DNA of 64,000 bases from a virus (Duplodnaviria > Heunggongvirae > Uroviricota > Caudoviricetes), in IMG/VR virus record IMGVR_UViG_3300046523_000117; one strand, written 5' to 3'. Below the pieces are notes generated by a model. That model was not told the DNA's origin and did not search any database. It saw nothing but the letters and a program-made list of their open reading frames with translations. Position numbers and translations under genes: made by a program. Below are positions 11,406 to 47,434 of this stretch, piece by piece. Positions within the stretch are counted from its first letter, which is position 1. Each line of letters starts with the position of its first letter.

Positions 11406-11409
11406 TTAA

Positions 11410-11445
11410 GAAAAGAAAAAGCCCCTAGAATCAGGGGCTTATTTT
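11410..11445. terminator. rho-independent terminator
   Basis: AAAAGAAAAAGCCCCTAGAATCAGGGGCTTATTTTAG. Confidence 0.7.
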
Positions 11446-17489: not shown

Positions 17490-17674
17490 ATCGCCTTTAT
17501 ATGATCTTGAATCAATCGCTTGACAAATTTTGAACTGGCCGTATCAATCAAATCAAGGTGTGGAATATAACCTTCGAATTCTTCTTTGGTAGTCCCGTCC
17601 GCAACCATGTCTTGGAACATGGCCCGCAGGTCTGCCATATGCTGAATGATTTCTTGATTCATTATTTGATCCAA
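17486..17674 (-). CDS. hypothetical protein (62 aa)
   Basis: minus-strand ORF. Confidence 0.4.
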   Translation of the reverse strand: MDQIMNQEIIQHMADLRAMFQDMVADGTTKEEFEGYIPHLDLIDTASSKFVKRLIQDHIKAM

Positions 17675-34577: not shown

Positions 34578-34612
34578 CAATAAAAAAGGCGGCTAACGCC
34601 GCCCTTTTAGGG
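34578..34612. terminator. rho-independent terminator
   Basis: ATAAAAAAGGCGGCtaacGCCGCCCTTTTAG. Confidence 0.7.
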
Positions 34613-34620
34613 GGTTGTGA

Positions 34621-34956
34621 TTATTCTTGGGTTTGTGCGACCGGTGCCGGTGTCTGGATCACAGTCGGTGACGTGCTGATTTCGACCATTCGATCACATG
34701 CCAACGACCGGGCGACTTCTTCACAGTCGTATCGGTTTTGTTTGGTCTTCGGACCATTCAGATAGCATTGGTTGAACTGTTGGATCACCAATTGCTTCTG
34801 AATCAGGGATGAACAGTTATAGAACACCCGTGTAGAGTCTGTGCGATTTTCACTGTGATTGACTTCTTCTTTCGAAGCACAACCACCCAGAGTGACAAGG
34901 GCCAGAGCCAGTACAATCAATTTACCTTTCATGCGGAATTTCCTTTTGTTATCCAA
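34621..34956 (-). CDS. lipoprotein (111 aa)
   Basis: MKGKLIVLALALVTLGGCAS signal peptide plus lipobox. Confidence 0.6.
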   Translation of the reverse strand: MDNKRKFRMKGKLIVLALALVTLGGCASKEEVNHSENRTDSTRVFYNCSSLIQKQLVIQQFNQCYLNGPKTKQNRYDCEEVARSLACDRMVEISTSPTVIQTPAPVAQTQE

Positions 34957-35560
34957 TCGGATCAGTGAGAACTAGTTGACCGGTGGGGCGAATCATCCAG
35001 TTTGACCCGTGACAATCCACTTTCGCATCCGGTAACCCAGCCATCCAAATCACGATATCTGCTAGGTTGTTTGTATTGTAGTTACGGTTCCCGCGCATGT
35101 CAAACTGATTCCGCAAAAAATCTGCAATTTTCTTTCGTTTACCATTCAGGGTTTTAAACTGATTGATAAACCATTGATTTCTACAGAGTTTTACGACATT
35201 CGACATTCCGACACTATGAACGATTTCGCTTTCATAGAGCCGTTCCATACAGGCTATTGCTCGACCATCATCCACAAACATATTATAAATTTTTGGCATC
35301 AATGGATTTGAGTCCATATGCCGGGTGACATGCTCTGCGTACTGAATCCAAGGGTCAGACCCTTTCCACGACAGTTTGAACACCCGCTCAGAATCGATTT
35401 GCCCAATCACCGACGAGTAAAACCCGGTTCCGTGATATTTCCATCCAACCGGCATCAAGCGTTGAAGCTCTAGGGTTTCGTGGAAGACGCGGGGAGCGTG
35501 TTGCATTGCTCCCTGCAAATCACCAGCAATCAGACAATCAATTAGTTTTGCGACATCCAT
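34949..35560 (-). CDS. atypical protein-kinase-like fold protein (203 aa)
   Basis: HGTGFYSSV Gly-loop-like, VFKLS Lys, DCHGSNWMI (DxHxxN catalytic-loop-like), LVLTDPIG (DFG-position); paralog of 35542..36375. Confidence 0.45.
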   Translation of the reverse strand: MDVAKLIDCLIAGDLQGAMQHAPRVFHETLELQRLMPVGWKYHGTGFYSSVIGQIDSERVFKLSWKGSDPWIQYAEHVTRHMDSNPLMPKIYNMFVDDGRAIACMERLYESEIVHSVGMSNVVKLCRNQWFINQFKTLNGKRKKIADFLRNQFDMRGNRNYNTNNLADIVIWMAGLPDAKVDCHGSNWMIRPTGQLVLTDPIG

Positions 35561-36375
35561 GAAAACTTAGTGCCTTGCTCCAGTTGCGTGTAGCCATTCA
35601 AAATGTCACAGATTGGGTCAGTCAGGACCGGGAAGCCATCGCGATGCATGACGTTGCTTGAGCTGATATCGTCACAGCCACGTACAGAATTTCGGTGGTC
35701 TTCGTAAACCCTAGCAGCAACAATTGCATCAATCGGACTGTGCTTAATGAACTGCCCGAACGTAAATTCGGCATTTTCCATGTAGCGGTCCACGTCGAAG
35801 TCTTCGAAAAAGGATTCGTCGGCCAGATCACCGAGCGAACCATCCTCAAAGGACAGGCCGACGCCAAGATGCAGATGCTCTACCACAGCGATGTACAGAT
35901 GTCCACGTTGTTCAATCGATTTGATGTTAGGGATATACGGGTTCCCTTGGTGCTGCGTGCAAGTCTTCATCCAACCAAACCCACCATCTACAGGCGAATA
36001 AAAGTTGTCCCGGCAGTTGACTTTCAACACCCACTCAGGGCCGAGGCTAAACACCTCTGCGAAAGATCCATTGCCGATGAAAATAAAGCACTTAGCAAGC
36101 ACTTCGGAGATAAATTCGAGGTCATACCCACTATCAGGTACGCCATCTACCGGAGTAAACTCACTGCCGAGTTTATCCTTGGTCGCATACTTGCCGAAGA
36201 TTTGAATCAAATTCTTCGGCAAGTTACGGATATCATCTTGTACGGCCTTGACATCAGCAACTGCTTGATGTACTAGATCGTCGTAGGACGGACCAATTTT
36301 AACTACACCACCTGCAAAGGAAATGCAAAAACTATCTGCACACCCCATATCTGCAACCGCTGCAACTGCGCCCAT
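35542..36375 (-). CDS. atypical protein-kinase-like fold protein (277 aa)
   Basis: IGNGSFAEVF glycine loop, WVLKV lysine, VMHRDGFPVLTDPI catalytic/DFG-like segment. Confidence 0.5.
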   Translation of the reverse strand: MGAVAAVADMGCADSFCISFAGGVVKIGPSYDDLVHQAVADVKAVQDDIRNLPKNLIQIFGKYATKDKLGSEFTPVDGVPDSGYDLEFISEVLAKCFIFIGNGSFAEVFSLGPEWVLKVNCRDNFYSPVDGGFGWMKTCTQHQGNPYIPNIKSIEQRGHLYIAVVEHLHLGVGLSFEDGSLGDLADESFFEDFDVDRYMENAEFTFGQFIKHSPIDAIVAARVYEDHRNSVRGCDDISSSNVMHRDGFPVLTDPICDILNGYTQLEQGTKFSWMSQN

Positions 36376-36402
36376 TCCGTTTTAGCCCCAATGCCCTAGG
36401 TT

Positions 36403-36603
36403 TTATGTTGGTTGTTTTTTGTGCAGCTTGTAATCTGCTGGGCAGTGTTTGTTCCAGATCGAAGCGTCCAGATCCAAAATTCCCTGTTGACGACAAAGTG
36501 TCTCGAACGATGTTCTCCCCGCGTGGTACACCTTGCTGTCATCGCTATATTGATAGAACCAATCGTGCTTTGCAAGCAGTTTTTCGTAATCAGACAGTAA
36601 CAT
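36403..36603 (-). CDS. hypothetical protein (66 aa)
   Basis: minus-strand ORF. Confidence 0.45.
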   Translation of the reverse strand: MLLSDYEKLLAKHDWFYQYSDDSKVYHAGRTSFETLCRQQGILDLDASIWNKHCPADYKLHKKQPT

Positions 36604-37072
36604 TCAGGGTAAATTCCGCTTTTTCAAGTTCGAGCCAAGCTTTGTGGTAGGTCTGGACGCGGGCGATGTCGCTAGGACGCACGCCCTTGAGCCGGGTGAT
36701 GCACGAATTGTGCTGTAGGTCACCTTTTTTGATCCGAATAATATCTACCCGACCTGCGGTAATCAGTCGCTGAATGAAATCCTCATAGGGTTCATCCTTA
36801 CGACGGGTCAACAGATCCAGACCAGATTCGAATTCTTCCAGAACGTCATATGCTCTGGCTTGGACCAACAAATGTTGAACCATTTCTGGGTGGTCTTCCT
36901 TGACATCATGACAAACCGCCAGTGCAAGGCTTACCGGGTTGGTAACGCCAAGTTTCCGTGCATTTTCCATGACGGTAATACAGTGCAAAATGTATGCCTT
37001 ACCGCCCTTGTCTACATCAAATTGATGTGCCATCGCAGCTACTGCAAAAACACCACCCAGAAGAGTTCCCAT
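36590..37072 (-). CDS. HD-domain hydrolase, RelA/SpoT-type (small alarmone hydrolase-like)
   Basis: YILHCITVMENARKLG...SLALAVCHDVKEDH matches the Rel/SpoT HD signature (HP...AALLHDVxED); 160 aa single domain. Confidence 0.6.
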   Translation of the reverse strand: MGTLLGGVFAVAAMAHQFDVDKGGKAYILHCITVMENARKLGVTNPVSLALAVCHDVKEDHPEMVQHLLVQARAYDVLEEFESGLDLLTRRKDEPYEDFIQRLITAGRVDIIRIKKGDLQHNSCITRLKGVRPSDIARVQTYHKAWLELEKAEFTLNVTV

Positions 37073-37434
37073 TACTTGACTTCCTGTGCCTTGGATACGT
37101 TAGGGAACCAGCTAAAGAACTGGACGCGCACGCCATTGGTCTTGAATGTGTACTTGGTGTCTTTCTTGATTTCACCGTACATGTCAGCGGAATTGAATTT
37201 CCAATTCAGCCACGAATCACGGTTTTCCAGAACACCTTTGTCGGTATAGATCAGGTACTTGCAATTACCCTGAGACGAACAACGCTCGCCCTTGTCGGTT
37301 ACGGTCGCGGTTACTTCGTCGCTGGTCGCCAGATACAGAACAGCTTTGGCACCACCGAACAACAGAAAGATCGCCAGAACTGTACCGTAGAGCAACAGTT
37401 CAACCGCCGAATTACCTTTTTGACTTTTCATCAA
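37072..37434 (-). CDS. membrane-anchored / periplasmic hypothetical protein (120 aa)
   Basis: N-terminal TM AVELLLYGTVLAIFLLFGGA. Confidence 0.5.
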   Translation of the reverse strand: MMKSQKGNSAVELLLYGTVLAIFLLFGGAKAVLYLATSDEVTATVTDKGERCSSQGNCKYLIYTDKGVLENRDSWLNWKFNSADMYGEIKKDTKYTFKTNGVRVQFFSWFPNVSKAQEVK

Positions 37435-37439
37435 ATCCC

Positions 37440-37739
37440 TTACTTCGTGTAGTGGCTGGCAATCGCCAACAGATTATTAAGCTCTTTGGACAGTTCAACC
37501 TTGTCCAGCTTTGGTTCGTTTTCAACCGTACTGATCAGAGCCATGATGTTTTTGCGTTCTTCGAACGAAATCGGCAGGTTATCGGCAACCCAGCTAAGGA
37601 TTGTAATAGCCGAAACAGTTGCGGTTTCATAGAAGGTCTTGCGGGCCATCAGATCCCGAACATCACCGATATTCAGTTTGATCTTTTGGGAATCGGCGGT
37701 AGCCGAGTATTGAACCAGTGTGTCGTTAAGTTTGCTCAT
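37440..37739 (-). CDS. hypothetical protein (99 aa)
   Basis: minus-strand ORF. Confidence 0.5.
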   Translation of the reverse strand: MSKLNDTLVQYSATADSQKIKLNIGDVRDLMARKTFYETATVSAITILSWVADNLPISFEERKNIMALISTVENEPKLDKVELSKELNNLLAIASHYTK

Positions 37740-37791
37740 GAGCCTATTCTATATCAGTTTTGAGTTGTTTTAAACAGAATCGAAAAATATT

Positions 37792-38094
37792 TTATCGATA
37801 GCTGGATTCGTAGGTGCCGGTAATGCCGATTTCGATTGTGAAATCATCACCCATATTGAATTCGTTGAATTCCCATCCACTTAGATACAGCAAATCCCGA
37901 CCGTTGGCTTCGAAGAAATCCCAACATGCGGGAGAAACCTTTACATCAAATTCCAGCTTTAGGGATTTGCGATTCAACCCAGTAACCGGGGCATTCACCA
38001 TCGCCTTTGCAATGGCTTCCCGAGCTTCGTTAAGGTGAATCTGTACACGCTGCGAAAAGATCGTAACCGGCGTTGGTACTGAAACCTGATTCAT
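37792..38094 (-). CDS. hypothetical protein (100 aa)
   Basis: minus-strand ORF. Confidence 0.45.
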   Translation of the reverse strand: MNQVSVPTPVTIFSQRVQIHLNEAREAIAKAMVNAPVTGLNRKSLKLEFDVKVSPACWDFFEANGRDLLYLSGWEFNEFNMGDDFTIEIGITGTYESSYR

Positions 38095-38629
38095 TCTGCA
38101 TCAATTCCTGTGCGTAGATTTTATAAAGGGCTTCCCGATCTTGGGGCTCCCAGAGATTGAACGTGGTGATTCTCAAGCCCTTGGCCAGATTGAACGCTGT
38201 AGCCGTACCACCCTTGACCGTTCGGCCTCTTGGTGGGGCACACGCGACAACCAAATCAGCCTTTGACTTTAGGTCGTCACCCAATACCTGAAACACGTTG
38301 CGGGTATGGGCGTTCTGTGCGAATTCATCAATTTCATCAAATCTTGGATGTATTCTTCTGGCGATGTCCTGAGCTTCAAACCACAAGTCCCCAAATTCGC
38401 TGGGGACTTTGAAACAATCAGCATTGGATCGACCATTGAAATTTGGTTCAGGTAGATAAATCGTTTTCCGATCCGATTCTACAAACCCCAATTCCCAAGC
38501 GCTATCCGCGCCTCTAGCACCACCAGACCGCAGATGCCAGCCTTTATTAGCGAGGACTGTAGCGAGGTTCTGACAAATCTTAAATTGGATTGCATCAATT
38601 TCCCTCGAACCGATTCCAGTAACGATCAA
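38030..38629 (-). CDS. DprA/Smf-like (SLOG superfamily) Rossmann-fold protein (199 aa)
   Basis: IVTGIGSREID ... LRSGGARGADSAWELG ... VVACAPPRGRTVKGGT parallels DprA GxGxxG / SGGARGID motifs; standalone domain. Confidence 0.5.
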   Translation of the reverse strand: MIVTGIGSREIDAIQFKICQNLATVLANKGWHLRSGGARGADSAWELGFVESDRKTIYLPEPNFNGRSNADCFKVPSEFGDLWFEAQDIARRIHPRFDEIDEFAQNAHTRNVFQVLGDDLKSKADLVVACAPPRGRTVKGGTATAFNLAKGLRITTFNLWEPQDREALYKIYAQELMQNESGFSTNAGYDLFAACTDSP

Positions 38630-38898
38630 AGCTGTTCCATCAAAAGACGAATCAGTTCATCACCGTCTACGTTGGTGCCTTTCATGTCAGTCAAGAAGCC
38701 TTTCAGGGCTACCGGGTTGACAGGTTGAACCAGAACATAATCGGTTTGGTCATCGAACTTGGTGTAATGCGACTTCATGTTTTCAGTGAAGCGGCGTTTG
38801 ACAATCGATGTGCTGTGTCCAACTTGACCGTATTGATAACCGTCTTGGGCACGAACAGAAGCATAACCTTTTAGAAACAAATTTTCTATCTTTTTCAT
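38626..38898 (-). CDS. hypothetical protein (90 aa)
   Basis: minus-strand ORF. Confidence 0.45.
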   Translation of the reverse strand: MKKIENLFLKGYASVRAQDGYQYGQVGHSTSIVKRRFTENMKSHYTKFDDQTDYVLVQPVNPVALKGFLTDMKGTNVDGDELIRLLMEQL

Positions 38899-38926
38899 AT
38901 TAAAAACCCGGCTTTCGCCGGGTTCC
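38898..38926. terminator. rho-independent terminator
   Basis: TTAAAAACCCGGCtttcGCCGGGTTCCTTATT. Confidence 0.55.
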
Positions 38927-38941
38927 TTATTCAGTTTTGAA

Positions 38942-40291
38942 TTATTGAGCTACTTTCATATCCAGCAGAAGGTCTTTTGCCGCTTTGGCACCTACCACGT
39001 TCATGAAATTGGCGGTTTCGGTTTGACGACCGTTATCACCAGCACCACCCATAACCAGTTGTGGAACCTTGGCTTTGGAGTATGCATCAGCCCAAACTTT
39101 TTCGATTTCGACACGGGCTTGCAGTTTCTGAGTCAAAGCACCGTCAGCGAGGATCACGGCTTTCTTGGCGTAGGCTTCCGCTTCGGCCTTTTCTTTCGTG
39201 GTCTTTGCATCAATTTGAGCTTGTTCAAACTTGATTTGAGAAGTTGCTTTCTCAATCGAAGCCTTTTCTTGCTCACGGGAAGCGTTGGTCAGAGCCAGTT
39301 GTTTTTCAGTTTCGGCGTTGGTGGTACGAATTACCTGATCTTTCATGGTCAGTTGACGTTGTGTTTCAACTTCCATTTCACCGTTTGCAGTAGCAAGTTT
39401 CTTTTGTTCGTCGGCAGTGATACGGCCTTGGCGAGCATAAGACAAATCAGCTTGCGATTGTTGAACTTTCTTCATGCGCTCTTTGAACTGAGGCGATGGA
39501 TCGATGTTCAAAATGTTCGCATCGGCAACAGTTACACCCAGTTTCGAGAACTGACGCTCCAGACGAATCGGCAGACCAGATTTTGCATCCAATACCTTTT
39601 CGGTAATTACAACGGTAGTTGTATCGGCACCGAATGAACCTTGTTCTTTACCATTCTGGGCAACAGCGCCTTGAGTGGCATCACGGGTATTCTTGACTTG
39701 CTTTTCAATTCGCTTGACGACATACGCACCGTCTGCAATTTGATCTTGGAAGCTCTGGCGGAATTCTGTTGCACCACCGTTGTAGTAATCGTCAGCCGAC
39801 ATCAACTGTGCAGTCGATTGCAGCGTGGATTTCATGACCGGCATGATCGATTGAAGAACAAAATTGTCGGGGCTGCGATAAGTACGAGCCAGTTGCAGGA
39901 ACTGTTCACCGTCCGGCAGTGCAACACGAACGTTCGCATCAACAGTAGCAACTACACCACCGAGGAAGGTCACCGGGAATGCTGGAATCAGAGAAGAACC
40001 CAATCCATCAAAATCACCCTTGGGTAATGTTGCGGTATCCAGTACAGATTGAACCGACATCTGGCGAGGCCACGGGGTTACCGTACCAAAACCGATGTAG
40101 GTGTAACCGGTGGTGCTTACAACCTTTTCACCTTGGGTTGGGAACTTGGTCATAACCTGAGTGATGTAACCGGCGCTGTTGTAATAGAACATGCTGCTAA
40201 ACATGAGCCAAACGAACAGAATTGCCGCTACAACGACCGCAGCCGTCCAACCGAGTTTCTTGTTTACTTCAAATCCGAGAATATTGCTCAC
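38942..40291 (-). CDS. SPFH/band-7 (stomatin/flotillin-like) membrane protein with long C-terminal coiled coil (449 aa)
   Basis: N-terminal TM (WTAAVVVAAILFVWLMF), SPFH-like core, Ala/Glu/Lys/Gln-rich flotillin-like tail. Confidence 0.55.
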   Translation of the reverse strand: MSNILGFEVNKKLGWTAAVVVAAILFVWLMFSSMFYYNSAGYITQVMTKFPTQGEKVVSTTGYTYIGFGTVTPWPRQMSVQSVLDTATLPKGDFDGLGSSLIPAFPVTFLGGVVATVDANVRVALPDGEQFLQLARTYRSPDNFVLQSIMPVMKSTLQSTAQLMSADDYYNGGATEFRQSFQDQIADGAYVVKRIEKQVKNTRDATQGAVAQNGKEQGSFGADTTTVVITEKVLDAKSGLPIRLERQFSKLGVTVADANILNIDPSPQFKERMKKVQQSQADLSYARQGRITADEQKKLATANGEMEVETQRQLTMKDQVIRTTNAETEKQLALTNASREQEKASIEKATSQIKFEQAQIDAKTTKEKAEAEAYAKKAVILADGALTQKLQARVEIEKVWADAYSKAKVPQLVMGGAGDNGRQTETANFMNVVGAKAAKDLLLDMKVAQ

Positions 40292-40440
40292 TAATCTTTC
40301 CTTTGTTTTGTTTGTGGTCCTAATGACCGGGTTACATGTACATCATACTACGTTTTGAATCTGTTTCAAACACTTTCGAAACTTTATTTTTTGTCGCGTT
40401 CTGTTTCGATGTCGCCATTCTATAGATTCAAAACACATTG

Positions 40441-41247
40441 TCAATGGATTCTGTAAAAACTTTTTTCGAGAAATCCGGTGTCGTCTTGATCTGGGTAGCC
40501 ATACGGGTTGCAGATAACGTTGGTGTCGCCAATCATGTAGTCATGAACGATATGGACGTGACCGTGGCACCAGAAATTGATGTTAGGTCGATCCAGAATG
40601 AATTCGCTCAAATCGCTGTGATAGCCGAAGTTCATGTAATATTCGTTGGCAAATTTCGGGTCGAGGCTTTTAGCACTTGGTGGGTGATGGGTCACGACCA
40701 CACAAGGTTCCATCGAATTGCCGACTTCTTCTGCGATGTATTCCAGATCCTTTTTATGCTCGGCTTGCCAGTGACGCGGCTTGAACTTCCCATAATGATC
40801 GAATTTTTCATCGTGGTAGTCGATTACCCGGAAATCGTTCATCCCGGTACTCAGGGTGAATTCCACCACCGGGTTACCGCGATCCATATTGGTCCAGAGC
40901 GTAGCCCCAACGAATCTAATTCCATCAATTACCACAGAGTCACGAATCAGGAAGTGGATGTTATCCAAGCCTTCTGGGTTCATTTTCTGGAAATTGAACA
41001 GGTTGGTAATCGGTTTGATTACGCTGCCGTAGTATTCGTGGTTCCCCGGAACGTACACAACCGCTTTGAAGCGGTTTCCGTATTCGGTCAACAGGGGTGC
41101 GACGTTCTCAGCACGTTTCAGGGTGTGAAAATCCCCGGCGATTACCAGAACACGTTCTTTGTCACCGTTGATATGCGGCAACGACGGCATTGCAAATGAG
41201 GCGTACCACTCAAGGTGGCAATCGCTAATAAGTCTGAATTCCATCAA
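40441..41247 (-). CDS. calcineurin-like metallophosphoesterase (class-III phosphodiesterase-like)
   Basis: GDFH ... GNHEYYG ... H ... GHVHIVHD motif set. Confidence 0.65.
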   Translation of the reverse strand: MMEFRLISDCHLEWYASFAMPSLPHINGDKERVLVIAGDFHTLKRAENVAPLLTEYGNRFKAVVYVPGNHEYYGSVIKPITNLFNFQKMNPEGLDNIHFLIRDSVVIDGIRFVGATLWTNMDRGNPVVEFTLSTGMNDFRVIDYHDEKFDHYGKFKPRHWQAEHKKDLEYIAEEVGNSMEPCVVVTHHPPSAKSLDPKFANEYYMNFGYHSDLSEFILDRPNINFWCHGHVHIVHDYMIGDTNVICNPYGYPDQDDTGFLEKSFYRIH

Positions 41248-41498
41248 TTACTCCACTTTACCCGGATGACGCAGGTATGAATTCTGTTTTTCTTGTCCAT
41301 ATATTCGATATGGGTCAGGATCGCTTTGTTGCCGACTCGATCTGTAAAGTTTTCTTGCCACTCTTTCACGACAGAACACCCATTCTGTTTGTAGAATGGG
41401 ATGTGTGGAATGACTTTGATTACCTTTCCGGCCATCAAGCCGTCAGGTTCACTGACATTTTTCAAGGGCTTTGTCATACAGATCACCGGCACAATCAA
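41244..41498 (-). CDS. hypothetical protein (84 aa)
   Basis: minus-strand ORF with a 4-nt overlap with the phosphoesterase gene. Confidence 0.45.
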   Translation of the reverse strand: MIVPVICMTKPLKNVSEPDGLMAGKVIKVIPHIPFYKQNGCSVVKEWQENFTDRVGNKAILTHIEYMDKKNRIHTCVIRVKWSN

Positions 41499-41649
41499 TC
41501 AAATCCTGTTGATGGTGGTCGTAGTGCAGATTCGAAGAAGCGTTATCGCCGGATCGGTCAGCAAGGCAGTAATTCAAAATGAATTGAAATTTACGTTCGT
41601 TGAATTCCGAGCTAGCTTGCGGGAGGCTATCGCCAATTTCGTCGTACAT
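41449..41649 (-). CDS. acidic hypothetical protein (66 aa)
   Basis: minus-strand ORF. Confidence 0.35.
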   Translation of the reverse strand: MYDEIGDSLPQASSEFNERKFQFILNYCLADRSGDNASSNLHYDHHQQDLIDCAGDLYDKALEKCQ

Positions 41650-41702
41650 TCTTAATTCCTCATTAGAAACAGAATCATATCACAGTTTCGATTCATTCTA
41701 AA

Positions 41703-41735
41703 CAAAAAAGGAGCCTTTCGGCTCCTTTTTATTTG
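41703..41735. terminator. rho-independent terminator
   Basis: CAAAAAAGGAGCCtttcGGCTCCTTTTTATTTG. Confidence 0.75.
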
Positions 41736-41741
41736 CATCAA

Positions 41742-43259
41742 TTACGGAATGCGAATTTCGCTAAACGCCCACTCCATAATGTGGTCACCGTCTTCCCACA
41801 CCGTAACCATTTGGTCAACGATTGTGTGATTGGTTTCTTGCAGCTCGATACGATCCGAGAAGAATTTCCCGTTCGAATCTTTGAACGTGGTCACACGACC
41901 TTTCTTGGACCGTTTAACCGAGTCGGTATCCGGGTCTTTGTACAGGTCACGCCACACACCATCTACACACAGTGCAGACGCTTTCATGGCGAATTTGAGC
42001 CAATCACGGTCGCAGTGTTGCAGAAGGGCACCACCCATACCGAAAACGATGTTATCGGCAGAGTAACCAAGTGCGAACATGTTCGCATAGATTTGACGAA
42101 TGCTGGATTCGTTGATGCCGTCGCCTTGCAGAACACGGATGCAATCTGGCAGGACTTTGTAACCTTTGCTGTTGATCGTGTAACCAAAACCTTCCATCAA
42201 AATGCCGATGATTTCTACCGGGATTTCGGTTGCTACACCGGAATCTGGGCGCAGTACAAACGTACCACCAGAATTCATGATTCGAGTTTTGATCGGATCA
42301 GTTGCACACCACTTGGCGAAGCGGCGAATGCTATAAGTATCACCCACACAGGCTACGATGCCTTTGTGTTTTTCCAGCAGTTGGATCGCCATTTCCAGAG
42401 CGTTGGAATCGTCGCGGGTTTCAGCGTCAGAGTTTGCACAAACAACACTGTGTTCCGTTGCACGAACCGAGAAGGCGGGCATTTCGCCTTTCTTCACGCC
42501 GTAGAACTGTTTCAATTCGATGATAGCTTGAATGGTATCAGTACCCATCCAACCGGCCATCAAGTGAGCAGCACCGCCGATGCGAGCAGATTCGACACTG
42601 GACACACCACGGAAACCGAAGTCGTGCAGCTTGAATTGACTACCAACGCCTTCATCAACCGATTCGCGGAAAGCTTGTTCAACCACTTGACGGATGCTGT
42701 ACGAAACAGAAGCCACGGTGATTGGATACCACGCTTGCAGGAACAGCGGTTCGAAGTACGAAACCAGCCATGCAAAGTCCGGGTGGGTGTTTTCAACAGT
42801 CCACAGAACGTTGCCGGTCGGAACAATCGTGCCTTCTTTCAGGCAGCGAATGCGCAGTGGCAGACGGCCTTTGAATTTTGTCACGATTGCTTCCCAACCT
42901 TTACGGTTGAAAACGTTCGGACCCATGTGCAGTTCTACCAGTTCTTCGGCTTCGTCCACATCCTGCATGGTCAGACGACCAGAGAAGTGACGTTTCAGAA
43001 TGGCTTGCAGGCCGACAAATACGGTGTAGGTGTAACCTTCGTTGACACCGCGTACTTCGTGCTGGTCAGATCCACGCGATTCCCCGTAGGAATACAGGTA
43101 CTGTGCCCCGGCTGGGATCATTTCCCAGTGGTCGCCTTTGTACGAATCGGATTTCAGGATCAGGTTGTTTGGGTTGAAATCAAGATTAATATTGAGACTG
43201 GTCATTCTTTCGAACTCCTCGAAAATTGAATTAGTTGTTTTGTTGCGCAGCACGACCAA
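41742..43259 (-). CDS. nadV: nicotinamide phosphoribosyltransferase (NAMPT/NadV)
   Basis: 505 aa; conserved NAMPT blocks (DSYKGDHW, GYTYTVFVGLQAILKRHF, LPLRIRCLKEGT, FGFRGVSSVESA, GTDT). Confidence 0.85.
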   Translation of the reverse strand: MVVLRNKTTNSIFEEFERMTSLNINLDFNPNNLILKSDSYKGDHWEMIPAGAQYLYSYGESRGSDQHEVRGVNEGYTYTVFVGLQAILKRHFSGRLTMQDVDEAEELVELHMGPNVFNRKGWEAIVTKFKGRLPLRIRCLKEGTIVPTGNVLWTVENTHPDFAWLVSYFEPLFLQAWYPITVASVSYSIRQVVEQAFRESVDEGVGSQFKLHDFGFRGVSSVESARIGGAAHLMAGWMGTDTIQAIIELKQFYGVKKGEMPAFSVRATEHSVVCANSDAETRDDSNALEMAIQLLEKHKGIVACVGDTYSIRRFAKWCATDPIKTRIMNSGGTFVLRPDSGVATEIPVEIIGILMEGFGYTINSKGYKVLPDCIRVLQGDGINESSIRQIYANMFALGYSADNIVFGMGGALLQHCDRDWLKFAMKASALCVDGVWRDLYKDPDTDSVKRSKKGRVTTFKDSNGKFFSDRIELQETNHTIVDQMVTVWEDGDHIMEWAFSEIRIP

Positions 43260-44316
43260 TCATGGTCATGATGATGTTGTGATGGTCTTCGAAAAAGTCA
43301 GCCGCGTGTTCCGGGGCAGCGATTTCAGAGATTGGAACCCAGAACGCTTTATCAGCGTCATCGGAACCGTAAACCCGTGGCAAGCTACCGTCATGATTTG
43401 TATCAATCTTGAAAGTAAATGCGAAGGTCATGAGCCGACCGCGAAGGGAACGTTTCGGATTATCGAACCGCTTTTCGTCAATGATCGACTTGCGCAGCAC
43501 CTTTTCAGGCACATGCAGTTTTGTTTCTTCATCCAGTTCACGAATCGCACCGTCTTCAACCGTTTCATTGGTATTGACGAATCCACCGGGTAGAGCAAGT
43601 TTGCCCTTACCGGGAATGTTTTTACGACGAATCAACAGGATGTGGCTTTTGCACAGAACTACCGCGTCTGCGGTTACGTCGTTGATCGGGTATTTGGCCC
43701 GACGATGTGCGGGATACGCTTTGTGGAAATTGTATTCGGCCAGCAGTTCCCGGAACATATCAGAACTGATGAATTTTGTGTTGACATAATCCCAGACACC
43801 GGAAGGCATCATTGGGCCAGCGTCACCAAAATACCCTTCGAACATCAGTTCGCGGATTTTGGTTGCCGCCATTTCTTCGTCGCCGTGCATTTTAGCACCG
43901 GATTCGATGAAATCCCATGTTGGGAACAAATCGAGATAGAATGAACTATCATCTTTCTTGTGCCCAACGATTGCGATTTTCGGAGCTTTGATGCCGGAAA
44001 TGTAACGAGTCGAAAGACGCATTACCTCGGCAGCCCACAAATCGTTCGATGGCATGTCGTTGATGAAACTGATTCCAACGCCTTTGATACCAGCGTCGAT
44101 GGTTGCCAATTCAACCATAGCCGAACGATCACGATTACCGAATGGGTTACGTTCATCACGCGGGGCGTTTGCACTCCCCAGAATCACGACCACTCGATCA
44201 GCAATCGAATCTGCCAGTTTGATGTTGTCCAAATGGGCGTTGTGCAGTGGAGCCATTCGCCCGATGAAAATTGCTAGGTCGTACTTTTTAACGTTGGTCA
44301 CTACTGATCCCCTCAA
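43231..44316 (-). CDS. natV: bifunctional NMN adenylyltransferase / Nudix (ADP-ribose pyrophosphatase) NatV-like
   Basis: The N-terminal cytidylyltransferase fold carries an HxGH-like motif (GRMAPLHNAH). The C-terminal Nudix box is GGFVNTNETVEDGAIRELDEETKL. The gene overlaps nadV. Confidence 0.8.
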   Translation of the reverse strand: MRGSVVTNVKKYDLAIFIGRMAPLHNAHLDNIKLADSIADRVVVILGSANAPRDERNPFGNRDRSAMVELATIDAGIKGVGISFINDMPSNDLWAAEVMRLSTRYISGIKAPKIAIVGHKKDDSSFYLDLFPTWDFIESGAKMHGDEEMAATKIRELMFEGYFGDAGPMMPSGVWDYVNTKFISSDMFRELLAEYNFHKAYPAHRRAKYPINDVTADAVVLCKSHILLIRRKNIPGKGKLALPGGFVNTNETVEDGAIRELDEETKLHVPEKVLRKSIIDEKRFDNPKRSLRGRLMTFAFTFKIDTNHDGSLPRVYGSDDADKAFWVPISEIAAPEHAADFFEDHHNIIMTMIGRAAQQNN

Positions 44317-44324
44317 TGTGTGAC

Positions 44325-44385
44325 TATTGAAACAGAATGGAATTGCGGATGCAACCCCTATTCTGTTTTTATTTTAGCTCTGTGC
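44325..44385. repeat. degenerate PeSL remnant / 8-bp inverted repeat
   Basis: AACAGAATggaattgcggATGCAACCCCTATTCTGTTTTTATTTTAG. Confidence 0.4.
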
Positions 44386-44904: not shown

Positions 44905-45948
44905 TTATGCGAAATCGAGGGTGAGCCATACCGGTTTGATTACCGATGCCGCGTGGGCACCGACTCGCTTACCAAGGACGTTCCATTCTTCGGTTTCTTG
45001 GGCCTTGTACCCATGATCTTTTTCGAAGTCTTCCAGAGCGTCACGGGTGAAATCCCCTTGCAGCCTACCGAACGACTTCTGGTCGTATACAGATTTTGAT
45101 ACAACCGCGTTAACCCGGTTCTCGCTCATGTAAGAGCAGACCTTATCCAGCAGAGCCTGTTGCTCGTCTGACAGGTTCACCGCCGACTTGATTTTTACTT
45201 CCTTGACCTTTTCACCGTACAGATGGTTCTTTTGTTTCAGAATCACCCGTTCTTCGCCCATATAGAAGTCTTCTTCATACCCGCAGATCACAAAACCTTC
45301 CGCGTAGTCAACCGGGGCTTTCTCACGATGTTCTGTTTCAAGACCAAATGCTTGTGGCACATGGGTATAGAACAACGGATCAATTTTGATCAGTTCTTCC
45401 AGCGTACCGATTTTGATGATCGGAGCATGACGCATACGGTCTTCGAACGACAAGCGAGCGATGAAGTTTGCATCAAATAGCAGGTCAACCAAATCCATGA
45501 ACGGAACGTAACGGCTGATACCGGTATCGAACGTCAGTTTCAGGTCGAATGCCATGAATTCGTTATCAGGGTGGTAGTTCACACCACCTTGAACTTTCTT
45601 GGCGGATTGAGCGCTAATCCCGTTATACGAACCACCGAAAATTTCACCGAACAGATTGATTTGAACCAGACCGGGGAACTCGCTCTTGACCAGACCAAAC
45701 AGAGCTTGGACAACTGGTTTGTATCGGGAGAAGAACCGGGAATGACCATAGAAGGTTTCAAGTTCATCGATCAAATCGTTACGGCTGGCAACCCGAATAG
45801 TAGTTCCGTCAGCAATCCACGAAAAGTTGGCACCGTGGATTTTCTCCACCGCCACCATCTGAGCATCCCCAACATGCATAGCGCATTTGTCGAGGAATCG
45901 TTGTTGGTAAGAGTTTTCGATGGAACTGTATTTAACAAATTCGCTCAC
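44905..45948 (-). CDS. rnlB: RNA ligase 2 (Rnl2, T4 gp24.1-like)
   Basis: The GTG start is preceded by AAAGGA. (V)SEFVKYSSIENSY...EKIHGANFSW aligns with the T4 Rnl2 MFKKYSSLENHY...EKIHGTNFSL KxHG ligase motif I. Confidence 0.8.
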   Translation of the reverse strand: MSEFVKYSSIENSYQQRFLDKCAMHVGDAQMVAVEKIHGANFSWIADGTTIRVASRNDLIDELETFYGHSRFFSRYKPVVQALFGLVKSEFPGLVQINLFGEIFGGSYNGISAQSAKKVQGGVNYHPDNEFMAFDLKLTFDTGISRYVPFMDLVDLLFDANFIARLSFEDRMRHAPIIKIGTLEELIKIDPLFYTHVPQAFGLETEHREKAPVDYAEGFVICGYEEDFYMGEERVILKQKNHLYGEKVKEVKIKSAVNLSDEQQALLDKVCSYMSENRVNAVVSKSVYDQKSFGRLQGDFTRDALEDFEKDHGYKAQETEEWNVLGKRVGAHAASVIKPVWLTLDFA

Positions 45949-45958
45949 AATAGATCCT

Positions 45959-46291
45959 TTATTTCTTTGGACGACCAGAATTAAGCCGGTCGTATAACAA
46001 TGTTTGTTGCAACTGGGTGATAGGCACATCCCCGTTTGCATGACCAAGTATTTTGTCCACGATGATATCTCGAAGACGTTTCATCGATGATTTGTTGAAC
46101 TTCCCTTCATCCGTATCAATACTGATGTTCACATATCCAATGTTGTTGGAATGCTTAAAAAATATCGTCAGGTAATCGTGGATAATGTCAAAGATTGTTT
46201 CTGGTGTTTCTGCGTAATACCGCGTAATTGTTGACGTAGTAACAGTCGGAGCGACTGTCACCACTTCAAATCCAACAATTAGGGCTCTCAC
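45959..46291 (-). CDS. hypothetical protein (110 aa)
   Basis: minus-strand ORF. Confidence 0.45.
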   Translation of the reverse strand: MRALIVGFEVVTVAPTVTTSTITRYYAETPETIFDIIHDYLTIFFKHSNNIGYVNISIDTDEGKFNKSSMKRLRDIIVDKILGHANGDVPITQLQQTLLYDRLNSGRPKK

Positions 46292-46566
46292 TCGGCCAAT
46301 CCCATGAGCGCACCGGCAAGGATATTAAATTTGACTTGATCTAGCATCAGATTACATCCAGCGTTGTCTTGATTAGTCATAAAACTAACCCCTTCTTCAC
46401 TATCAGAGTTATCCTGTTCACCCACGATCATTACAAAGTCACATTTGCCGGTAAGAATCTCGCCGTACATTTCATCCAGAGCTTTTTTAATTTCTGGGGT
46501 AATCTTTTCTGATGGCTTGGCAGCCGACACCAATTGAAACACTTTCTTATCTGTCATACTTCGCAC
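46288..46566 (-). CDS. hypothetical protein (92 aa)
   Basis: minus-strand ORF. Confidence 0.45.
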   Translation of the reverse strand: MRSMTDKKVFQLVSAAKPSEKITPEIKKALDEMYGEILTGKCDFVMIVGEQDNSDSEEGVSFMTNQDNAGCNLMLDQVKFNILAGALMGLAE

Positions 46567-46575
46567 CGGTTTAGA

Positions 46576-47433: not shown

Positions 47434-47434
47434 T

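What the first reader, a model, noticed from the sequence alone, without database searches (positions are those of the whole stretch)
34621..44316. Candidate composite counter-defence / nucleotide-signalling island adjacent to the NAD+ salvage genes
Within ~10 kb, and all co-oriented, the phage encodes a lipoprotein, two kinase-like proteins, an alarmone-hydrolase-like HD protein, a periplasmic or membrane protein, a DprA/SLOG-like protein, a flotillin-like scaffold and a cyclic-nucleotide-phosphodiesterase-like enzyme. It then encodes NAMPT (nadV) and an NMNAT-Nudix fusion (natV). Every identifiable enzyme in this stretch acts on a nucleotide or nucleotide-derived messenger (ppGpp or ppApp, cNMP, NAD+, ADP-ribose, ATP). 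No T4 core gene interrupts it. It is bounded by strong terminators at 34578 and 41703. That concentration is unlikely by chance. It suggests a previously uncharacterised accessory module dedicated to neutralising nucleotide-based host immunity (Thoeris, DSR, CBASS, Pycsar, toxSAS/CapRel-type systems) or to reprogramming host signalling. Only the nadV-natV part has a described function.
Basis: inference. Interest (0 to 1): 0.75.

Follow-up and report, generated by a model that had tools for sequence, protein, structure and literature searches.

The report
Phage accessory genes, not one island
This stretch of a T4-like Pseudomonas phage really does hold the NAD+-rebuilding pair plus several probable host-takeover and anti-defence genes, but they are inherited as fixed genome backbone in one phage lineage, not as a self-contained island.

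Summary
They are a lipoprotein, two T7-kinase-like protein kinases, an Aph1-like (p)ppApp-hydrolase-type HD protein, a membrane protein and a DprA-family Rossmann protein. They also include an SPFH protein, a calcineurin-type phosphodiesterase, and NAMPT plus NMNAT-Nudix (the published NARP2 pathway). Both terminators are real.

The 'island' reading is not supported:
- The same gene order is kept in all eight related loci I examined (seven phages), and it runs on without a break into RNA repair, AsiA, topoisomerase and DNA polymerase. Only the left edge is a real boundary, where a hypervariable region begins.
- Outside this lineage the genes scatter or are absent. Around 80 unrelated NAMPT loci, NMNAT is present in 75, the HD protein in 8, the phosphodiesterase in 7 and the DprA-like gene in 4. 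The kinases, SPFH and lipoprotein are present in none.
- The stretch has an internal terminator and several promoter-like sites, so it is not one transcription unit.
- Nearly every identifiable enzyme elsewhere in the window also acts on nucleotides or nucleic acids, so the claimed enrichment is not special.

Best reading: a lineage-specific early-gene arm that carries several independent accessory genes. Interest is modest.

The parts
34578..34603 (-). Intrinsic terminator after the lipoprotein gene. It is the left boundary of the conserved arm.
   Evidence: GGGCGGC-GUUA-GCCGCC followed by U6. The fold energy is -17.9 kcal/mol; 1 of 200 shuffles folds as well.
34621..34956 (-). g1, small lipoprotein. 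The likely true start is the internal MKGKL.
   Evidence: Lipobox LGGC follows a hydrophobic signal peptide. Weak lipoprotein-family matches cover the signal peptide. It is 60-79% identical in all clade members.
34949..35560 (-). g2, T7-kinase-like protein kinase A. It has the kinase domain only.
   Evidence: phrog_15752, E 7e-12. Aligned with T7 gp0.7 it keeps the GxG loop, the catalytic Lys, D-x4-N and a DPI motif in register with DPV of T7K. It evolves fast: 32% identity to Milchi. It is split in L173, and L171 has only one kinase.
35542..36375 (-). g3, T7-kinase-like protein kinase B, a distant paralogue of g2.
   Evidence: phrog_15752, E 2.5e-6. It has the same motifs as g2. Pairwise, g2 and g3 share only the catalytic-loop/DPI stretch.
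36403..36603 (-). g4, 66-aa ORF of unknown function.
   Evidence: Conserved in L004, L005 and L171. No family assignment.
36590..37072 (-). g5, small HD-domain alarmone hydrolase of the Aph1 (p)ppApp-hydrolase type.
   Evidence: Best solved relative is 7SMG, a (p)ppApp hydrolase, E 1.4e-13, ahead of Rel/SpoT hydrolase domains at E 3e-4 or weaker. phrog_990, E 1.4e-26. The HD metal motif is kept, and 4 of the 6 Aph signature residues are kept (alignment read against PMC10083569).
37072..37434 (-). g6, small protein with an N-terminal membrane or signal segment.
   Evidence: phrog_301 'secreted protein', E 1e-21. No homologue detected in L171.
37440..38094 (-). g7 (37440-37739) and g8 (37792-38094), small ORFs of unknown function. 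A sigma-70-like site lies at 37746-37774.
   Evidence: No family hits. g7 is kept in L004, L005, L007 and L008. g8 is found only in L004.
38030..38629 (-). g9, stand-alone DprA-family (SLOG superfamily) Rossmann-domain protein.
   Evidence: phrog_768, E 2.5e-54. Pfam DprA scores 23.5 bits, below the 29.6 cutoff. AF2 model pLDDT 90. Foldseek top hits are H. pylori DprA, then MoCo carrier, ShosA, LOG and ThsA-SLOG, with TM about 0.5. The profile's best PDB hits are DprA, E 1e-3.
38626..38898 (-). g10, 90-aa ORF of unknown function.
   Evidence: Conserved within the clade. No family hit.
38942..40291 (-). g11, membrane-anchored SPFH/Band 7 (flotillin-like) protein.
   Evidence: Pfam Band_7, E 2.4e-11, above cutoff. 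phrog_11908, E 1e-64. It has an N-terminal hydrophobic segment and an Ala/Glu/Lys-rich C-terminal region. It is 54-86% identical across the clade. It is rare in sequenced phages: 28 records.
40342..40444 (-). Two tandem sigma-70-like promoter sites in the 149-bp gap upstream of g11.
   Evidence: TTGACA-16-TAGAAT (11 of 12) and TTGAAA-16-TATGAT (10 of 12). These are consensus matches only.
40441..41247 (-). g12, calcineurin-type metallophosphodiesterase with unresolved substrate.
   Evidence: Pfam Metallophos, E 2.3e-11. phrog_1649, E 7.6e-53. AF2 model pLDDT 95. Foldseek top hit is PptH (6UNC, TM 0.64), then MPPED2, Rv0805, GpdQ, Mre11 and Dbr1. Profile against PDB: Lmo2642 E 1.5e-3, PptH E 2e-3.
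41244..41649 (-). g13 (41244-41498) and g14 (41449-41649), small ORFs of unknown function.
   Evidence: g13 matches phrog_18660, E 1.7e-10, and is kept in L004, L171 and L173. g14 is found only in L004.
41674..41730 (-). Intrinsic terminator (41703-41730) directly followed by a promoter-like site (41674-41702). Together they split the region into two transcription units.
   Evidence: AAAAAGGAGCC-GAAA-GGCUCCUUUUUU. The fold energy is -17.6 kcal/mol, z -4.7; 0 of 200 shuffles fold as well.
41742..43259 (-). g15, nicotinamide phosphoribosyltransferase (NAMPT, nadV), the first enzyme of NARP2.
   Evidence: Pfam NAPRTase E 3.4e-37 and NAMPT_N E 1.5e-24. NCBIfam PRK09198 scores 497 bits, above the 405 cutoff. 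phrog_448, E 4e-142.
43231..44316 (-). g16, bifunctional NMN adenylyltransferase / Nudix hydrolase (natV), the second enzyme of NARP2. It overlaps g15 by 29 nt.
   Evidence: Pfam CTP_transf_like plus NUDIX. Full-length alignments to the NCBIfam PRK05379 models reach 292 bits, below the equivalog cutoff of 409.

Best explanation
The region is the distal end of the conserved early-gene arm of a T4-like Pseudomonas phage, related to phages Milchi and Astolliot. It is not a discrete island.

It has at least two transcription units: natV-nadV, ending at the 41703 terminator, and g14 to g1, which has internal sigma-70-like promoter sites and ends at the 34578 terminator.

Its larger genes most likely act independently, early in infection, on different host targets:
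- NAMPT plus NMNAT-Nudix rebuild NAD+ (NARP2). The pathway is shown for homologues; its role here is inferred.
- The two T7-kinase-like kinases phosphorylate host, and possibly defence, proteins. This is inferred from intact catalytic motifs.
- The Aph1-like HD enzyme removes 3'-pyrophosphate from (p)ppApp-type nucleotides made by toxic alarmone synthetases. This is inferred from homology and signature residues.
- The DprA-family protein most likely binds single-stranded DNA or a recombinase. This inference is weak.
- The phosphodiesterase, the SPFH protein, the membrane protein and the lipoprotein have no assignable target. The three envelope proteins probably affect the cell envelope or superinfection.

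The genes sit together because the lineage inherited them vertically in this order, next to the hypervariable region where accessory genes accumulate. They do not form one machine.
For: (1) Collinearity. The order lipoprotein, kinase(s), HD, DprA-like, SPFH, phosphodiesterase, NAMPT, NMNAT, GH108 endolysin, Rnl2 is kept across the related loci: Milchi, L004, L005 (a contig-end fragment that stops in the SPFH gene), L007, L008, L171 and L173; for Astolliot, five of these genes lie in the same relative positions. NAMPT identity ranges from 88% down to 61%. The order then continues through PNKP, AsiA, topoisomerase II, primase, helicase, UvsX and DNA polymerase.

(2) Only the left edge is a boundary. 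Of about 106 ORFs in window 1-34400, only about 15 have a Milchi homologue. From 34621 rightwards nearly all larger genes do.

(3) Change is piecemeal, not as a unit. L171 has one kinase and no detectable g6 homologue. L173 has a split kinase A. The small ORFs g4, g8, g13 and g14 come and go. L171 has an HNH-domain gene inserted, and L171, L173 and probably Milchi carry an extra gp30.3-like gene.

(4) Scatter outside the lineage.
- 80 NAMPT-anchored IMG/VR loci with 10 kb flanks: NMNAT in 75, HD in 8, phosphodiesterase in 7, DprA-like in 4; kinases, SPFH, lipoprotein and g6 in 0.
- 77 HD-anchored loci: NAMPT in 7 (NMNAT in 8), phosphodiesterase in 5, DprA-like in 2, SPFH in 1, kinases in 0.
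- RSP15 has the DprA-like gene 18-22 kb from the HD and phosphodiesterase genes, with tail genes between them.
- phiN3 has SPFH and DprA-like 67 kb apart.
- A KVP40-type phage has the phosphodiesterase beside topoisomerase, with no NARP2 within 20 kb.

(5) Record counts in 50,697 phage genomes differ by three orders of magnitude: kinase A 2, SPFH 28, phosphodiesterase 197, HD 236, DprA-like 1524, NAMPT superfamily 2010.

(6) Transcription signals. There is an internal terminator at 41703, and promoter-like sites in the intergenic gaps at 41674-41702, 40342-40444 and 37746-37774.

(7) Function by homology and from the papers cited above.
Against: - Three or four candidate counter-defence functions within 10 kb is more than a random 10-kb slice of a phage genome would hold. 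From my own recollection, not checked here, anti-defence genes are known to cluster.
- The HD gene recurs next to NARP2 elsewhere, inside the operon in several loci, and in Aeromonas phage Ah1. Phosphodiesterases recur next to HD genes. Some functional coupling between these three is therefore possible.
- No expression or phenotype data exist.
- All functions except NARP2 rest on distant homology: 17-37% identity to characterised proteins.
Confidence: 0.7

Rival explanations
1. One reading: the block is one dedicated module that neutralises nucleotide-based immunity (Thoeris, DSR, CBASS, Pycsar, toxSAS), and its parts were selected to stay together.
For: - NARP2, a T7K-like kinase and a small alarmone hydrolase each have an anti-defence precedent (10.1101/2024.02.11.579819; PMC13645617; PMC9712102).
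- All genes are co-oriented, early-type and conserved together within the lineage.
- The kinases, the HD protein, g6 and the DprA-like protein evolve about twice as fast as the core genes: 27-45% identity to Milchi against 71.5% for DNA polymerase. This fits an arms race.
Against: - The block is not found as a unit outside one lineage.
- The right boundary is arbitrary.
- An internal terminator and several promoter-like sites break it up.
- Three members are envelope proteins with no link to nucleotides.
- The kinases act on proteins.
- The phosphodiesterase is not related to the known cyclic-nucleotide-degrading anti-defence enzymes. Acb1 is a 2H phosphoesterase and Apyc1 has a metallo-beta-lactamase fold (my own knowledge), whereas g12 has a calcineurin fold.
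- The DprA-like protein keeps DprA-family motifs, not LOG or ThsA ligand-binding motifs.
Confidence: 0.12
2. Extended NARP2: the Aph1-like HD hydrolase, and perhaps the phosphodiesterase, are accessory enzymes of the NAD+/adenylate restoration pathway. They could recover ATP or ADP from (p)ppApp, or dephosphorylate an NAD-derived product. This would parallel the published phosphatase extension of NARP1 (10.64898/2026.01.28.702374).
For: - An HD gene lies within 10 kb of NAMPT in 8 of 80 unrelated NARP2 loci. It sits directly upstream of NMNAT in L114, L126, L129, L139 and L150, and between NMNAT and NAMPT in L093.
- In Aeromonas phage Ah1 the HD gene lies 2.2 kb downstream of NAMPT.
- The phosphodiesterase lies within 10 kb of NAMPT in 7 of 80 loci, and directly adjacent to the HD gene in L080.
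- The flanking genes Rnl2 and GH108 serve as internal controls. They are never near NARP2 in those 80 loci.
Against: - All NARP2-linked HD proteins elsewhere are 66-100% identical to one another and only 30-35% identical to the window protein. They amount to about one further lineage plus Ah1, not many independent events.
- Grouping loci by HD identity of 90% or more leaves NAMPT linked in only 2 of 57 groups.
- Backbone genes such as DNA ligase, RNA ligase and UvsW are equally frequent NARP2 neighbours.
- About 90% of NARP2 loci have no HD gene nearby.
- In the window a terminator separates NARP2 from the other genes.
Confidence: 0.12
3. Mostly housekeeping. The HD enzyme, the phosphodiesterase, NARP2 and the DprA-like protein tune nucleotide pools, recombination and the stringent response for phage replication, and have no specific anti-defence role.
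For: - NARP2 raises NAD+ even in cells that lack a defence system (10.1101/2024.02.11.579819).
- DprA-like proteins are proposed as additional ssDNA-binding proteins in large phages (PMC7824862).
- The region lies within the nucleotide-metabolism, RNA-repair and replication arm.
Against: - Homologues of three components have experimentally shown anti-defence effects (papers cited above).
- The kinases, the HD protein and g6 evolve fast, which is unusual for housekeeping enzymes.
Confidence: 0.15

Closest known systems
NARP2 (NAD+ reconstitution pathway 2) of Vibrio phage KVP40: Nampt plus bifunctional Nmnat/Nudix
   Same: Same two enzymes, same domain architectures, adjacent and overlapping genes. 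NMNAT accompanies NAMPT in 75 of 80 related loci, which matches the published 94% (10.1101/2024.02.11.579819).
   Different: NAMPT-anchored relatives outside this lineage share 41-53% identity with the window protein. The host is probably Pseudomonas. No activity has been tested.
T7 protein kinase gp0.7 (T7K), a hyperpromiscuous anti-defence kinase
   Same: Glycine-rich loop, catalytic Lys, D-x4-N catalytic loop and the family-specific DP(V/I) motif in place of DFG are all in register (PMC13645617).
   Different: There are two tandem, highly diverged copies. Both lack the C-terminal shut-off/DNA-binding domain that directs T7K to nucleic-acid-binding proteins. They sit in a T4-like phage, not in the groups that paper lists (Autographiviridae, jumbophages, prophages). 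Identity to T7K is about 17-20%.
Aph1 (PDB 7SMG), a (p)ppApp-specific small alarmone hydrolase, and phage SAHs such as PaSpo of phage SSU5
   Same: Same single-domain HD fold and size. It is the best PDB match, E 1.4e-13. The HD metal motif is kept, as are Aph signature residues D24, R96, R119 and Y134. D24 and R119 are the two residues whose substitution let Aph1 also hydrolyse ppGpp (PMC10083569).
   Different: Two signature positions differ: D116 is Cys and K133 is Thr. There is no adjacent (p)ppApp synthetase toxin, so the protein is not an immunity protein for a phage-borne toxin.
DprA/Smf Rossmann domain, and the DprA-like antitoxin ShosA
   Same: SLOG/DprA fold and the SGGxxGxD, RN and GGT motifs.
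   Different: It has only the Rossmann domain, with no SAM or winged-helix domains. It scores below the Pfam and NCBIfam DprA cutoffs. Some relatives are fused to DUF4326. Function is unknown.
Counter-nucleotide and NAD+-centred systems of jumbo phages (PMC7824862), and hyperplastic accessory regions of T4-like genomes
   Same: Same general picture: large phages carry an HD-alarmone hydrolase, NAD+ salvage and phosphoesterases among their early accessory genes.
   Different: Here they sit in a roughly 170-180 kb T4-like phage and are fixed in order within one lineage.

Membership tests
NARP2 | NAMPT-type phosphoribosyltransferase (NAMPT_N plus NAPRTase domains) | tested here: met
   Pfam E 1.5e-24 and 3.4e-37. 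NCBIfam PRK09198 scores 497 bits, above the 405 cutoff.
NARP2 | Bifunctional NMN adenylyltransferase plus Nudix protein encoded next to NAMPT | tested here: met
   CTP_transf_like and NUDIX domains in one 361-aa protein. The genes overlap by 29 nt. The full-length PRK05379 match scores 292 bits, below the equivalog cutoff of 409.
NARP2 | Restores NAD+ and overcomes NAD+-depleting defence systems | not testable with these tools
   This needs infection assays and NAD+ measurement.
T7K-like phage protein kinase | Kinase catalytic core: Gly-rich loop, catalytic Lys and D-x4-N loop | tested here: met
   Columns G44, G46, K62, D182 and N187 are invariant across the g2 family, the g3 family and T7 gp0.7.
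T7K-like phage protein kinase | DPV-type motif replacing DFG | tested here: met
   D200 and P201 are invariant. The motif reads DPI in g2 and g3 and DPV in T7 (motif defined in PMC13645617).
T7K-like phage protein kinase | C-terminal shut-off/DNA-binding domain | tested here: not met
   g2 ends 2 residues after DPI and g3 ends 22 residues after it. T7 gp0.7 continues for about 145 more residues.
Aph1-type (p)ppApp hydrolase | HD metal-binding motif in a single-domain protein of about 150 aa | tested here: met
   H30, H55-D56, D118 and H121-N122 are invariant in alignment A1. The protein is 160 aa.
Aph1-type (p)ppApp hydrolase | Six Aph-specific residues (D24, R96, D116, R119, K133, Y134) | tested here: inconclusive
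   Four are kept: D21, R102, R127 and Y142 of g5. D116 is Cys124 and K133 is Thr141 (alignment read against PMC10083569). The homologues in KB57 and RSP15 keep Asp at the D116 position.
Aph1-type (p)ppApp hydrolase | Hydrolyses ppApp but not ppGpp | not testable with these tools
   This needs an enzyme assay.
DprA / SLOG superfamily | Rossmann-like SLOG fold with DprA motifs | tested here: met
   AF2 model pLDDT 90. Foldseek probability is 1.0 to DprA, MoCo carrier, ShosA and LOG, with TM 0.35-0.54. The SGG, RN and GGT columns are invariant.
DprA / SLOG superfamily | Passes the curated DprA family thresholds and has the full DprA architecture (SAM plus Rossmann plus winged helix) | tested here: not met
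   Pfam 23.5 bits against a 29.6 cutoff. TIGR00732 20.7 bits against 191. The protein is 199 aa with the Rossmann domain only.
Class III cyclic-nucleotide phosphodiesterase (CpdA/Rv0805 type) | Calcineurin-fold binuclear metal site | tested here: met
   Pfam Metallophos is above cutoff. The D-x-H, GD, GNHE and GHxH columns are invariant or nearly so. AF2 model pLDDT 95.
Class III cyclic-nucleotide phosphodiesterase (CpdA/Rv0805 type) | Specific relationship to cNMP phosphodiesterases over other metallophosphoesterases | tested here: inconclusive
   The top fold hit is the phosphopantetheinyl hydrolase PptH (TM 0.64). MPPED2, Rv0805, GpdQ, Mre11 and Dbr1 follow at TM 0.47-0.54. Profile E-values are 1.5e-3 for Lmo2642 and 2e-3 for PptH. 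There is no NCBIfam match.
SPFH / flotillin | Band 7 domain with a membrane anchor | tested here: met
   Band_7 scores 44.4 bits against a 23.6 cutoff. An N-terminal hydrophobic segment is visible in the sequence.
Anti-defence island (a co-inherited cluster) | The cluster recurs as a unit in unrelated phage backbones, or is gained and lost as a unit among relatives | tested here: not met
   It is present and collinear in all eight related loci examined (L005 only in part), as part of a longer backbone. In unrelated phages only pairwise proximities appear, at 3-10% of loci, and none involve the kinases, SPFH or the lipoprotein.

The most novel reading that the evidence does not exclude
The Aph1-like HD hydrolase, possibly with a calcineurin-type phosphodiesterase, is a recurrent accessory of phage NAD+ reconstitution loci. 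It would extend NARP2 by recovering adenylates from (p)ppApp or by dephosphorylating an NAD-derived product. This would parallel the phosphatase extension of NARP1 against aRES. In this Pseudomonas lineage it would be combined with a duplicated, domain-trimmed T7K-like kinase pair as a multi-layer early counter-defence arm.
Probability: 0.12. Interest if true: 0.6.

Novelty: new member of a known kind. Interest (0 to 1): 0.3.

Why it matters
If the individual predictions hold, this phage lineage would offer in one place several testable things. These are a NARP2 pathway, the first T7K-like kinases reported in a T4-like phage (two copies, without the DNA-binding domain), and a lytic-phage (p)ppApp-type hydrolase that has no cognate toxin. 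That would make it a useful test bed for Pseudomonas defence systems. It does not reveal a new kind of system. The clustering is explained by vertical inheritance of an accessory-gene arm, and each recognisable component belongs to a family already described.

Tried and rejected
- DNA-level search of the block in INPHARED found only nadV/natV of Milchi and Astolliot at about 75% identity, so no close sequenced relative exists there.
- Pfam alone missed the kinases and the HD protein. PHROGs, PDB matches and motif alignment were needed.
- The automatic terminator scan did not list the two terminators. They were confirmed by reading the sequence and by folding.
- I considered that the NARP1-associated phosphatase Adpp might be the g12 family. 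[quoted passage not shown]
- I considered NARP3 (PnuC plus NadR). No such genes are in the block.
- I considered g9 as a ThsA-like SLOG sponge for Thoeris signals. DprA ranks above LOG and ThsA by both sequence profile and fold, so this stays speculative.
- I considered that the 'thymidylate kinase' next to the HD gene in Mydovirus phages is a kinase-HD pairing like g3-g5. It has no detectable similarity to g2 or g3.
- Unbiased clustering of NARP2 and HD neighbourhoods gave no dominant shared partner from the block.
- PDB sequence searches for g2 and g11 returned nothing significant.
- A literature search for phage SPFH function found nothing decisive.

Full report
**What is there.** The window is part of a T4-like phage. 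Its nearest sequenced relatives are Pseudomonas phages Milchi and Astolliot (DNA polymerase 71.6% amino-acid identity). At the DNA level only nadV/natV match them, at about 75%. The region 34621-44316 is filled by sixteen co-oriented minus-strand ORFs.

- g1 is a lipoprotein, with a signal peptide and an LGGC lipobox and weak lipoprotein-family hits over the signal peptide.
- g2 and g3 match the PHROG of the T7 gp0.7 kinase, E 7e-12 and 2.5e-6.
- g5 is a 160-aa HD protein. Its best solved relative is the (p)ppApp hydrolase 7SMG, E 1.4e-13, well ahead of Rel/SpoT hydrolase domains.
- g6 is a small protein with an N-terminal hydrophobic segment (phrog_301 'secreted protein').
- g9 belongs to the phage 'DprA-like' family phrog_768, E 2.5e-54.
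- g11 is a 449-aa membrane-anchored SPFH/Band 7 protein.
- g12 is a calcineurin-type metallophosphoesterase.
- g15 and g16 are NAMPT and NMNAT-Nudix.
- Six small ORFs (g4, g7, g8, g10, g13, g14) have no assignable function.

**Closer tests of the labels.**

Kinases. The g2 and g3 families align with T7 gp0.7, and the glycine-rich loop, the catalytic lysine, the D-x4-N catalytic loop and a DP motif are invariant. The motif reads DPI here and DPV in T7. That DPV-for-DFG replacement is the published hallmark of T7K homologues (PMC13645617). Both proteins stop just after this motif, so they lack the C-terminal shut-off/DNA-binding domain of T7K.

HD protein. I read the phmmer alignment to 7SMG against the six residues that distinguish Aph-type (p)ppApp hydrolases (PMC10083569). 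Four are kept in g5: D24, R96, R119 and Y134. These include the two (D24 and R119) whose mutation let Aph1 also act on ppGpp. D116 is Cys and K133 is Thr. An adenosine-type alarmone hydrolase is therefore the best prediction, but not a secure one.

Phosphoesterase. The AF2 model is confident (pLDDT 95). Its nearest folds are the phosphopantetheinyl hydrolase PptH (TM 0.64), then MPPED2, Rv0805, GpdQ, Mre11 and Dbr1. Profile matches to PDB are weak: Lmo2642 at 1.5e-3 and PptH at 2e-3. 'Cyclic-nucleotide phosphodiesterase-like' is allowed by these data but is not diagnostic. A mycobacteriophage metallophosphoesterase has been reported to act on host DNA (PMC12287305).

DprA-like protein. g9 has a SLOG/DprA Rossmann fold (pLDDT 90). 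DprA ranks first by fold and by profile, ahead of MoCo carrier, ShosA, LOG and ThsA-SLOG. It falls below the curated DprA thresholds and lacks DprA's other domains. A few relatives are fused to DUF4326. DUF4326 is linked by context to NAD+/ADP-ribose systems in PMC7824862.

**Transcription signals.** The one at 34578-34603 folds at -17.9 kcal/mol and the one at 41703-41730 at -17.6 kcal/mol. Each is followed by a U run and is more stable than nearly all shuffles.

The second terminator lies inside the claimed region and separates natV-nadV from the remaining genes. A promoter-like site follows it immediately (41674-41702). Two strong sigma-70-like sites lie in the gap before g11 (40342-40444), and another lies before g7 (37746-37774). 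The region is therefore at least two transcription units, and probably three or four. These promoter matches are consensus matches only.

**Is it a unit? Within the lineage.** I recovered eight related loci from seven phages:
- Milchi and Astolliot.
- Four IMG/VR contigs: L004, L005, L007 and L008.
- Three assembly contigs: L171 and L172, which are the same phage, and L173.

NAMPT identity to the window ranges from 88% down to 61%. Where a locus covers the region, it keeps the order lipoprotein, kinase(s), HD, DprA-like, SPFH, phosphoesterase, NAMPT, NMNAT, GH108 endolysin, Rnl2. L005 is a contig-end fragment that stops in the SPFH gene, and for Astolliot I saw only the positions of five of the genes.

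A gene-by-gene comparison with Milchi shows two things.
- The collinear, conserved stretch does not stop at 44316. It continues through Rnl2, PNKP, AsiA, topoisomerase II, exonuclease, a MazG-like gene, primase, helicase, UvsX and DNA polymerase.
- To the left of 34600, only about 15 of about 106 small ORFs have a Milchi homologue.

The left edge of the block is thus the edge of a hypervariable region, and the right edge is arbitrary. Changes inside the block are piecemeal:
- L171 has one kinase and no detectable g6 homologue.
- L173 has a split kinase A.
- Small ORFs come and go.
- L171 has an HNH-domain gene inserted.
- L171, L173 and probably Milchi carry a gp30.3-like gene that the window lacks.

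The block is never gained or lost as a unit. The kinases, g6, HD and DprA-like proteins are much more diverged from Milchi (27-45% identity) than the polymerase (71.5%), NAMPT (81%) or SPFH (64%). This fits proteins that face the host.

**Is it a unit? Outside the lineage.**

NAMPT-anchored scan. A scan of IMG/VR with 10-kb flanks gave 80 loci in 65 groups, at 41-53% identity. NMNAT is present in 75, HD in 8, the g12-type phosphoesterase in 7 and the DprA-like gene in 4. None has a kinase, SPFH, lipoprotein, g6, Rnl2 or GH108 homologue.

HD-anchored scan. Among 77 loci outside the lineage, NAMPT is nearby in 7 (NMNAT in 8), the phosphoesterase in 5, DprA-like in 2 and SPFH in 1.

The HD-NARP2 pairing is the most striking. 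In several loci the HD gene sits directly upstream of NMNAT, or between NMNAT and NAMPT. In Aeromonas phage Ah1 it lies 2.2 kb downstream of NAMPT. However, all NARP2-linked HD proteins elsewhere are 66-100% identical to one another and only 30-35% identical to the window protein. The pairing therefore represents perhaps two or three independent events.

Unbiased clustering of neighbours supports this caution. DNA ligase, RNA ligase, UvsW and an AAA ATPase are as frequent around NARP2 as the HD gene is. Elsewhere, the commonest neighbour of the HD gene is a 193-aa small metallophosphoesterase that the window lacks.

Individual genomes show scatter:
- RSP15 has the DprA-like gene 18-22 kb from an HD-ATPase-phosphoesterase cluster, with tail genes between them.
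- phiN3 has SPFH and DprA-like 67 kb apart.
- Mydovirus phages carry the HD gene with none of the others nearby.
- A KVP40-type phage has the phosphoesterase beside topoisomerase, with no NARP2 within 20 kb.

Record counts in 50,697 phage genomes run from 2 (kinase A) through 28 (SPFH), 197, 236 and 1524 to 2010 (NAMPT superfamily).

**Is the concentration beyond chance?** The enrichment argument does not hold. Outside the block, the identifiable enzymes in this window are:
- a CYTH protein (17662-18159),
- Rnl2, PNKP and Rnl1,
- a MazG-like pyrophosphatase and an exonuclease,
- topoisomerase, primase, helicase, UvsX and DNA polymerase,
- two cell-wall hydrolases.

Nearly all act on nucleotides or nucleic acids, so '100% nucleotide enzymes' inside the block is what this genome arm gives everywhere. 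The count also relies on treating protein kinases as nucleotide enzymes, and it ignores three envelope proteins.

**Best explanation and rivals.** I judge it most likely (about 0.7) that this is a vertically inherited early accessory arm. On this reading its larger genes act independently: NARP2 on the NAD+ pool, the T7K-like kinases on host or defence proteins, the Aph-like HD enzyme on (p)ppApp-type products of toxic alarmone synthetases, and the DprA-family protein on ssDNA or a recombinase. The phosphodiesterase and the three envelope proteins have no assignable target. Only the NARP2 chemistry is established, and that in homologues (10.1101/2024.02.11.579819). Everything else is inference from homology.

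The rivals are:
- an integrated anti-nucleotide-immunity module (0.12),
- an 'extended NARP2' in which the HD enzyme and perhaps the phosphoesterase serve NAD+/adenylate restoration (0.12), by analogy with the NARP1 phosphatase against aRES (10.64898/2026.01.28.702374),
- a mainly housekeeping role (0.15).

**Novelty.** Each recognisable part belongs to a described family. The general idea of HD-alarmone hydrolases and NAD+-centred counter-systems in large phages has been published (PMC7824862). The modestly new points are three:
- a tandem pair of domain-trimmed T7K-like kinases in a T4-like phage;
- a toxin-less Aph-type hydrolase in a phage with a T4-type genome, presumably lytic;
- the occasional embedding of such an HD gene in NARP2 operons.

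I rate this a new member of a known kind, interest 0.3.

Noticed in passing
window 44325-44372 (minus strand): A very stable hairpin lies in the 57-bp gap between the GH108 endolysin gene and natV. It folds at -20.1 kcal/mol, z -7.1; 0 of 200 shuffles fold as well. It has no U run after it, so it is not a classic intrinsic terminator. It may be a processing or regulatory site.
   Followed up: partly
window 44905-48568 (minus strand): Directly beyond the claimed right edge lies a complete RNA-repair set: Rnl2 (44905-46047), PNKP with kinase and HAD phosphatase domains (46576-47457), and a T4 Rnl1-type ligase (47435-48568). From my own knowledge of T4, PNK plus Rnl1 counter anticodon nucleases. 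The Rnl1 gene found no Milchi homologue in the 60 kb of Milchi that I searched, but it is present at this position in L171 and L173.
   Followed up: partly
window 1-34400: About 106 small minus-strand ORFs are tightly packed here. Only about 15 have a detectable homologue in the first 60 kb of Milchi. This is a hypervariable (hyperplastic) early region.
   Followed up: partly
window 17662-18159 (minus strand): A CYTH-domain (triphosphate tunnel metalloenzyme) protein, Pfam E 7.7e-16. It is 60% identical to a Milchi protein. It is another nucleotide-acting accessory enzyme, 17 kb outside the block.
   Followed up: no
HD-anchored loci, for example L029:2314-2895: In unrelated phages the commonest neighbour of the small HD hydrolase is a 193-aa protein with calcineurin-type metallophosphoesterase motifs (DLHFGH, GD, GNHD, HGHLH). 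It is present in 19 of 77 loci (16 of 57 groups). In the one locus whose coordinates I checked (L029) it lies about 200 bp downstream of the HD gene. Pfam gave no hit for it. The window has no homologue.
   Followed up: partly
L003 (Aeromonas phage Ah1) 19995-20446: The HD hydrolase gene downstream of NAMPT is split into two annotated CDSs. It is an apparent pseudogene or frameshift.
   Followed up: no
L006 (Ralstonia phage RSP15) 18747-23274: A cluster of an HD hydrolase, an ATPase and three phosphoesterases lies directly next to a 17-gene tRNA array. This hints at an RNA or tRNA-end repair context for some phage HD hydrolases.
   Followed up: no
proteins P0169 and P0202 (relatives of g9): Some members of the phage DprA-like family are fused to DUF4326 (PF14216), a domain predicted elsewhere to link NAD+/ADP-ribose systems with DNA modification (PMC7824862).
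   Followed up: no
L001 (Milchi) 11358-11795: Milchi's annotation has a plus-strand hypothetical CDS here. The conserved homologue of g6 lies on the minus strand (tblastn hit 11750-11388). The deposited annotation is probably on the wrong strand.
   Followed up: no
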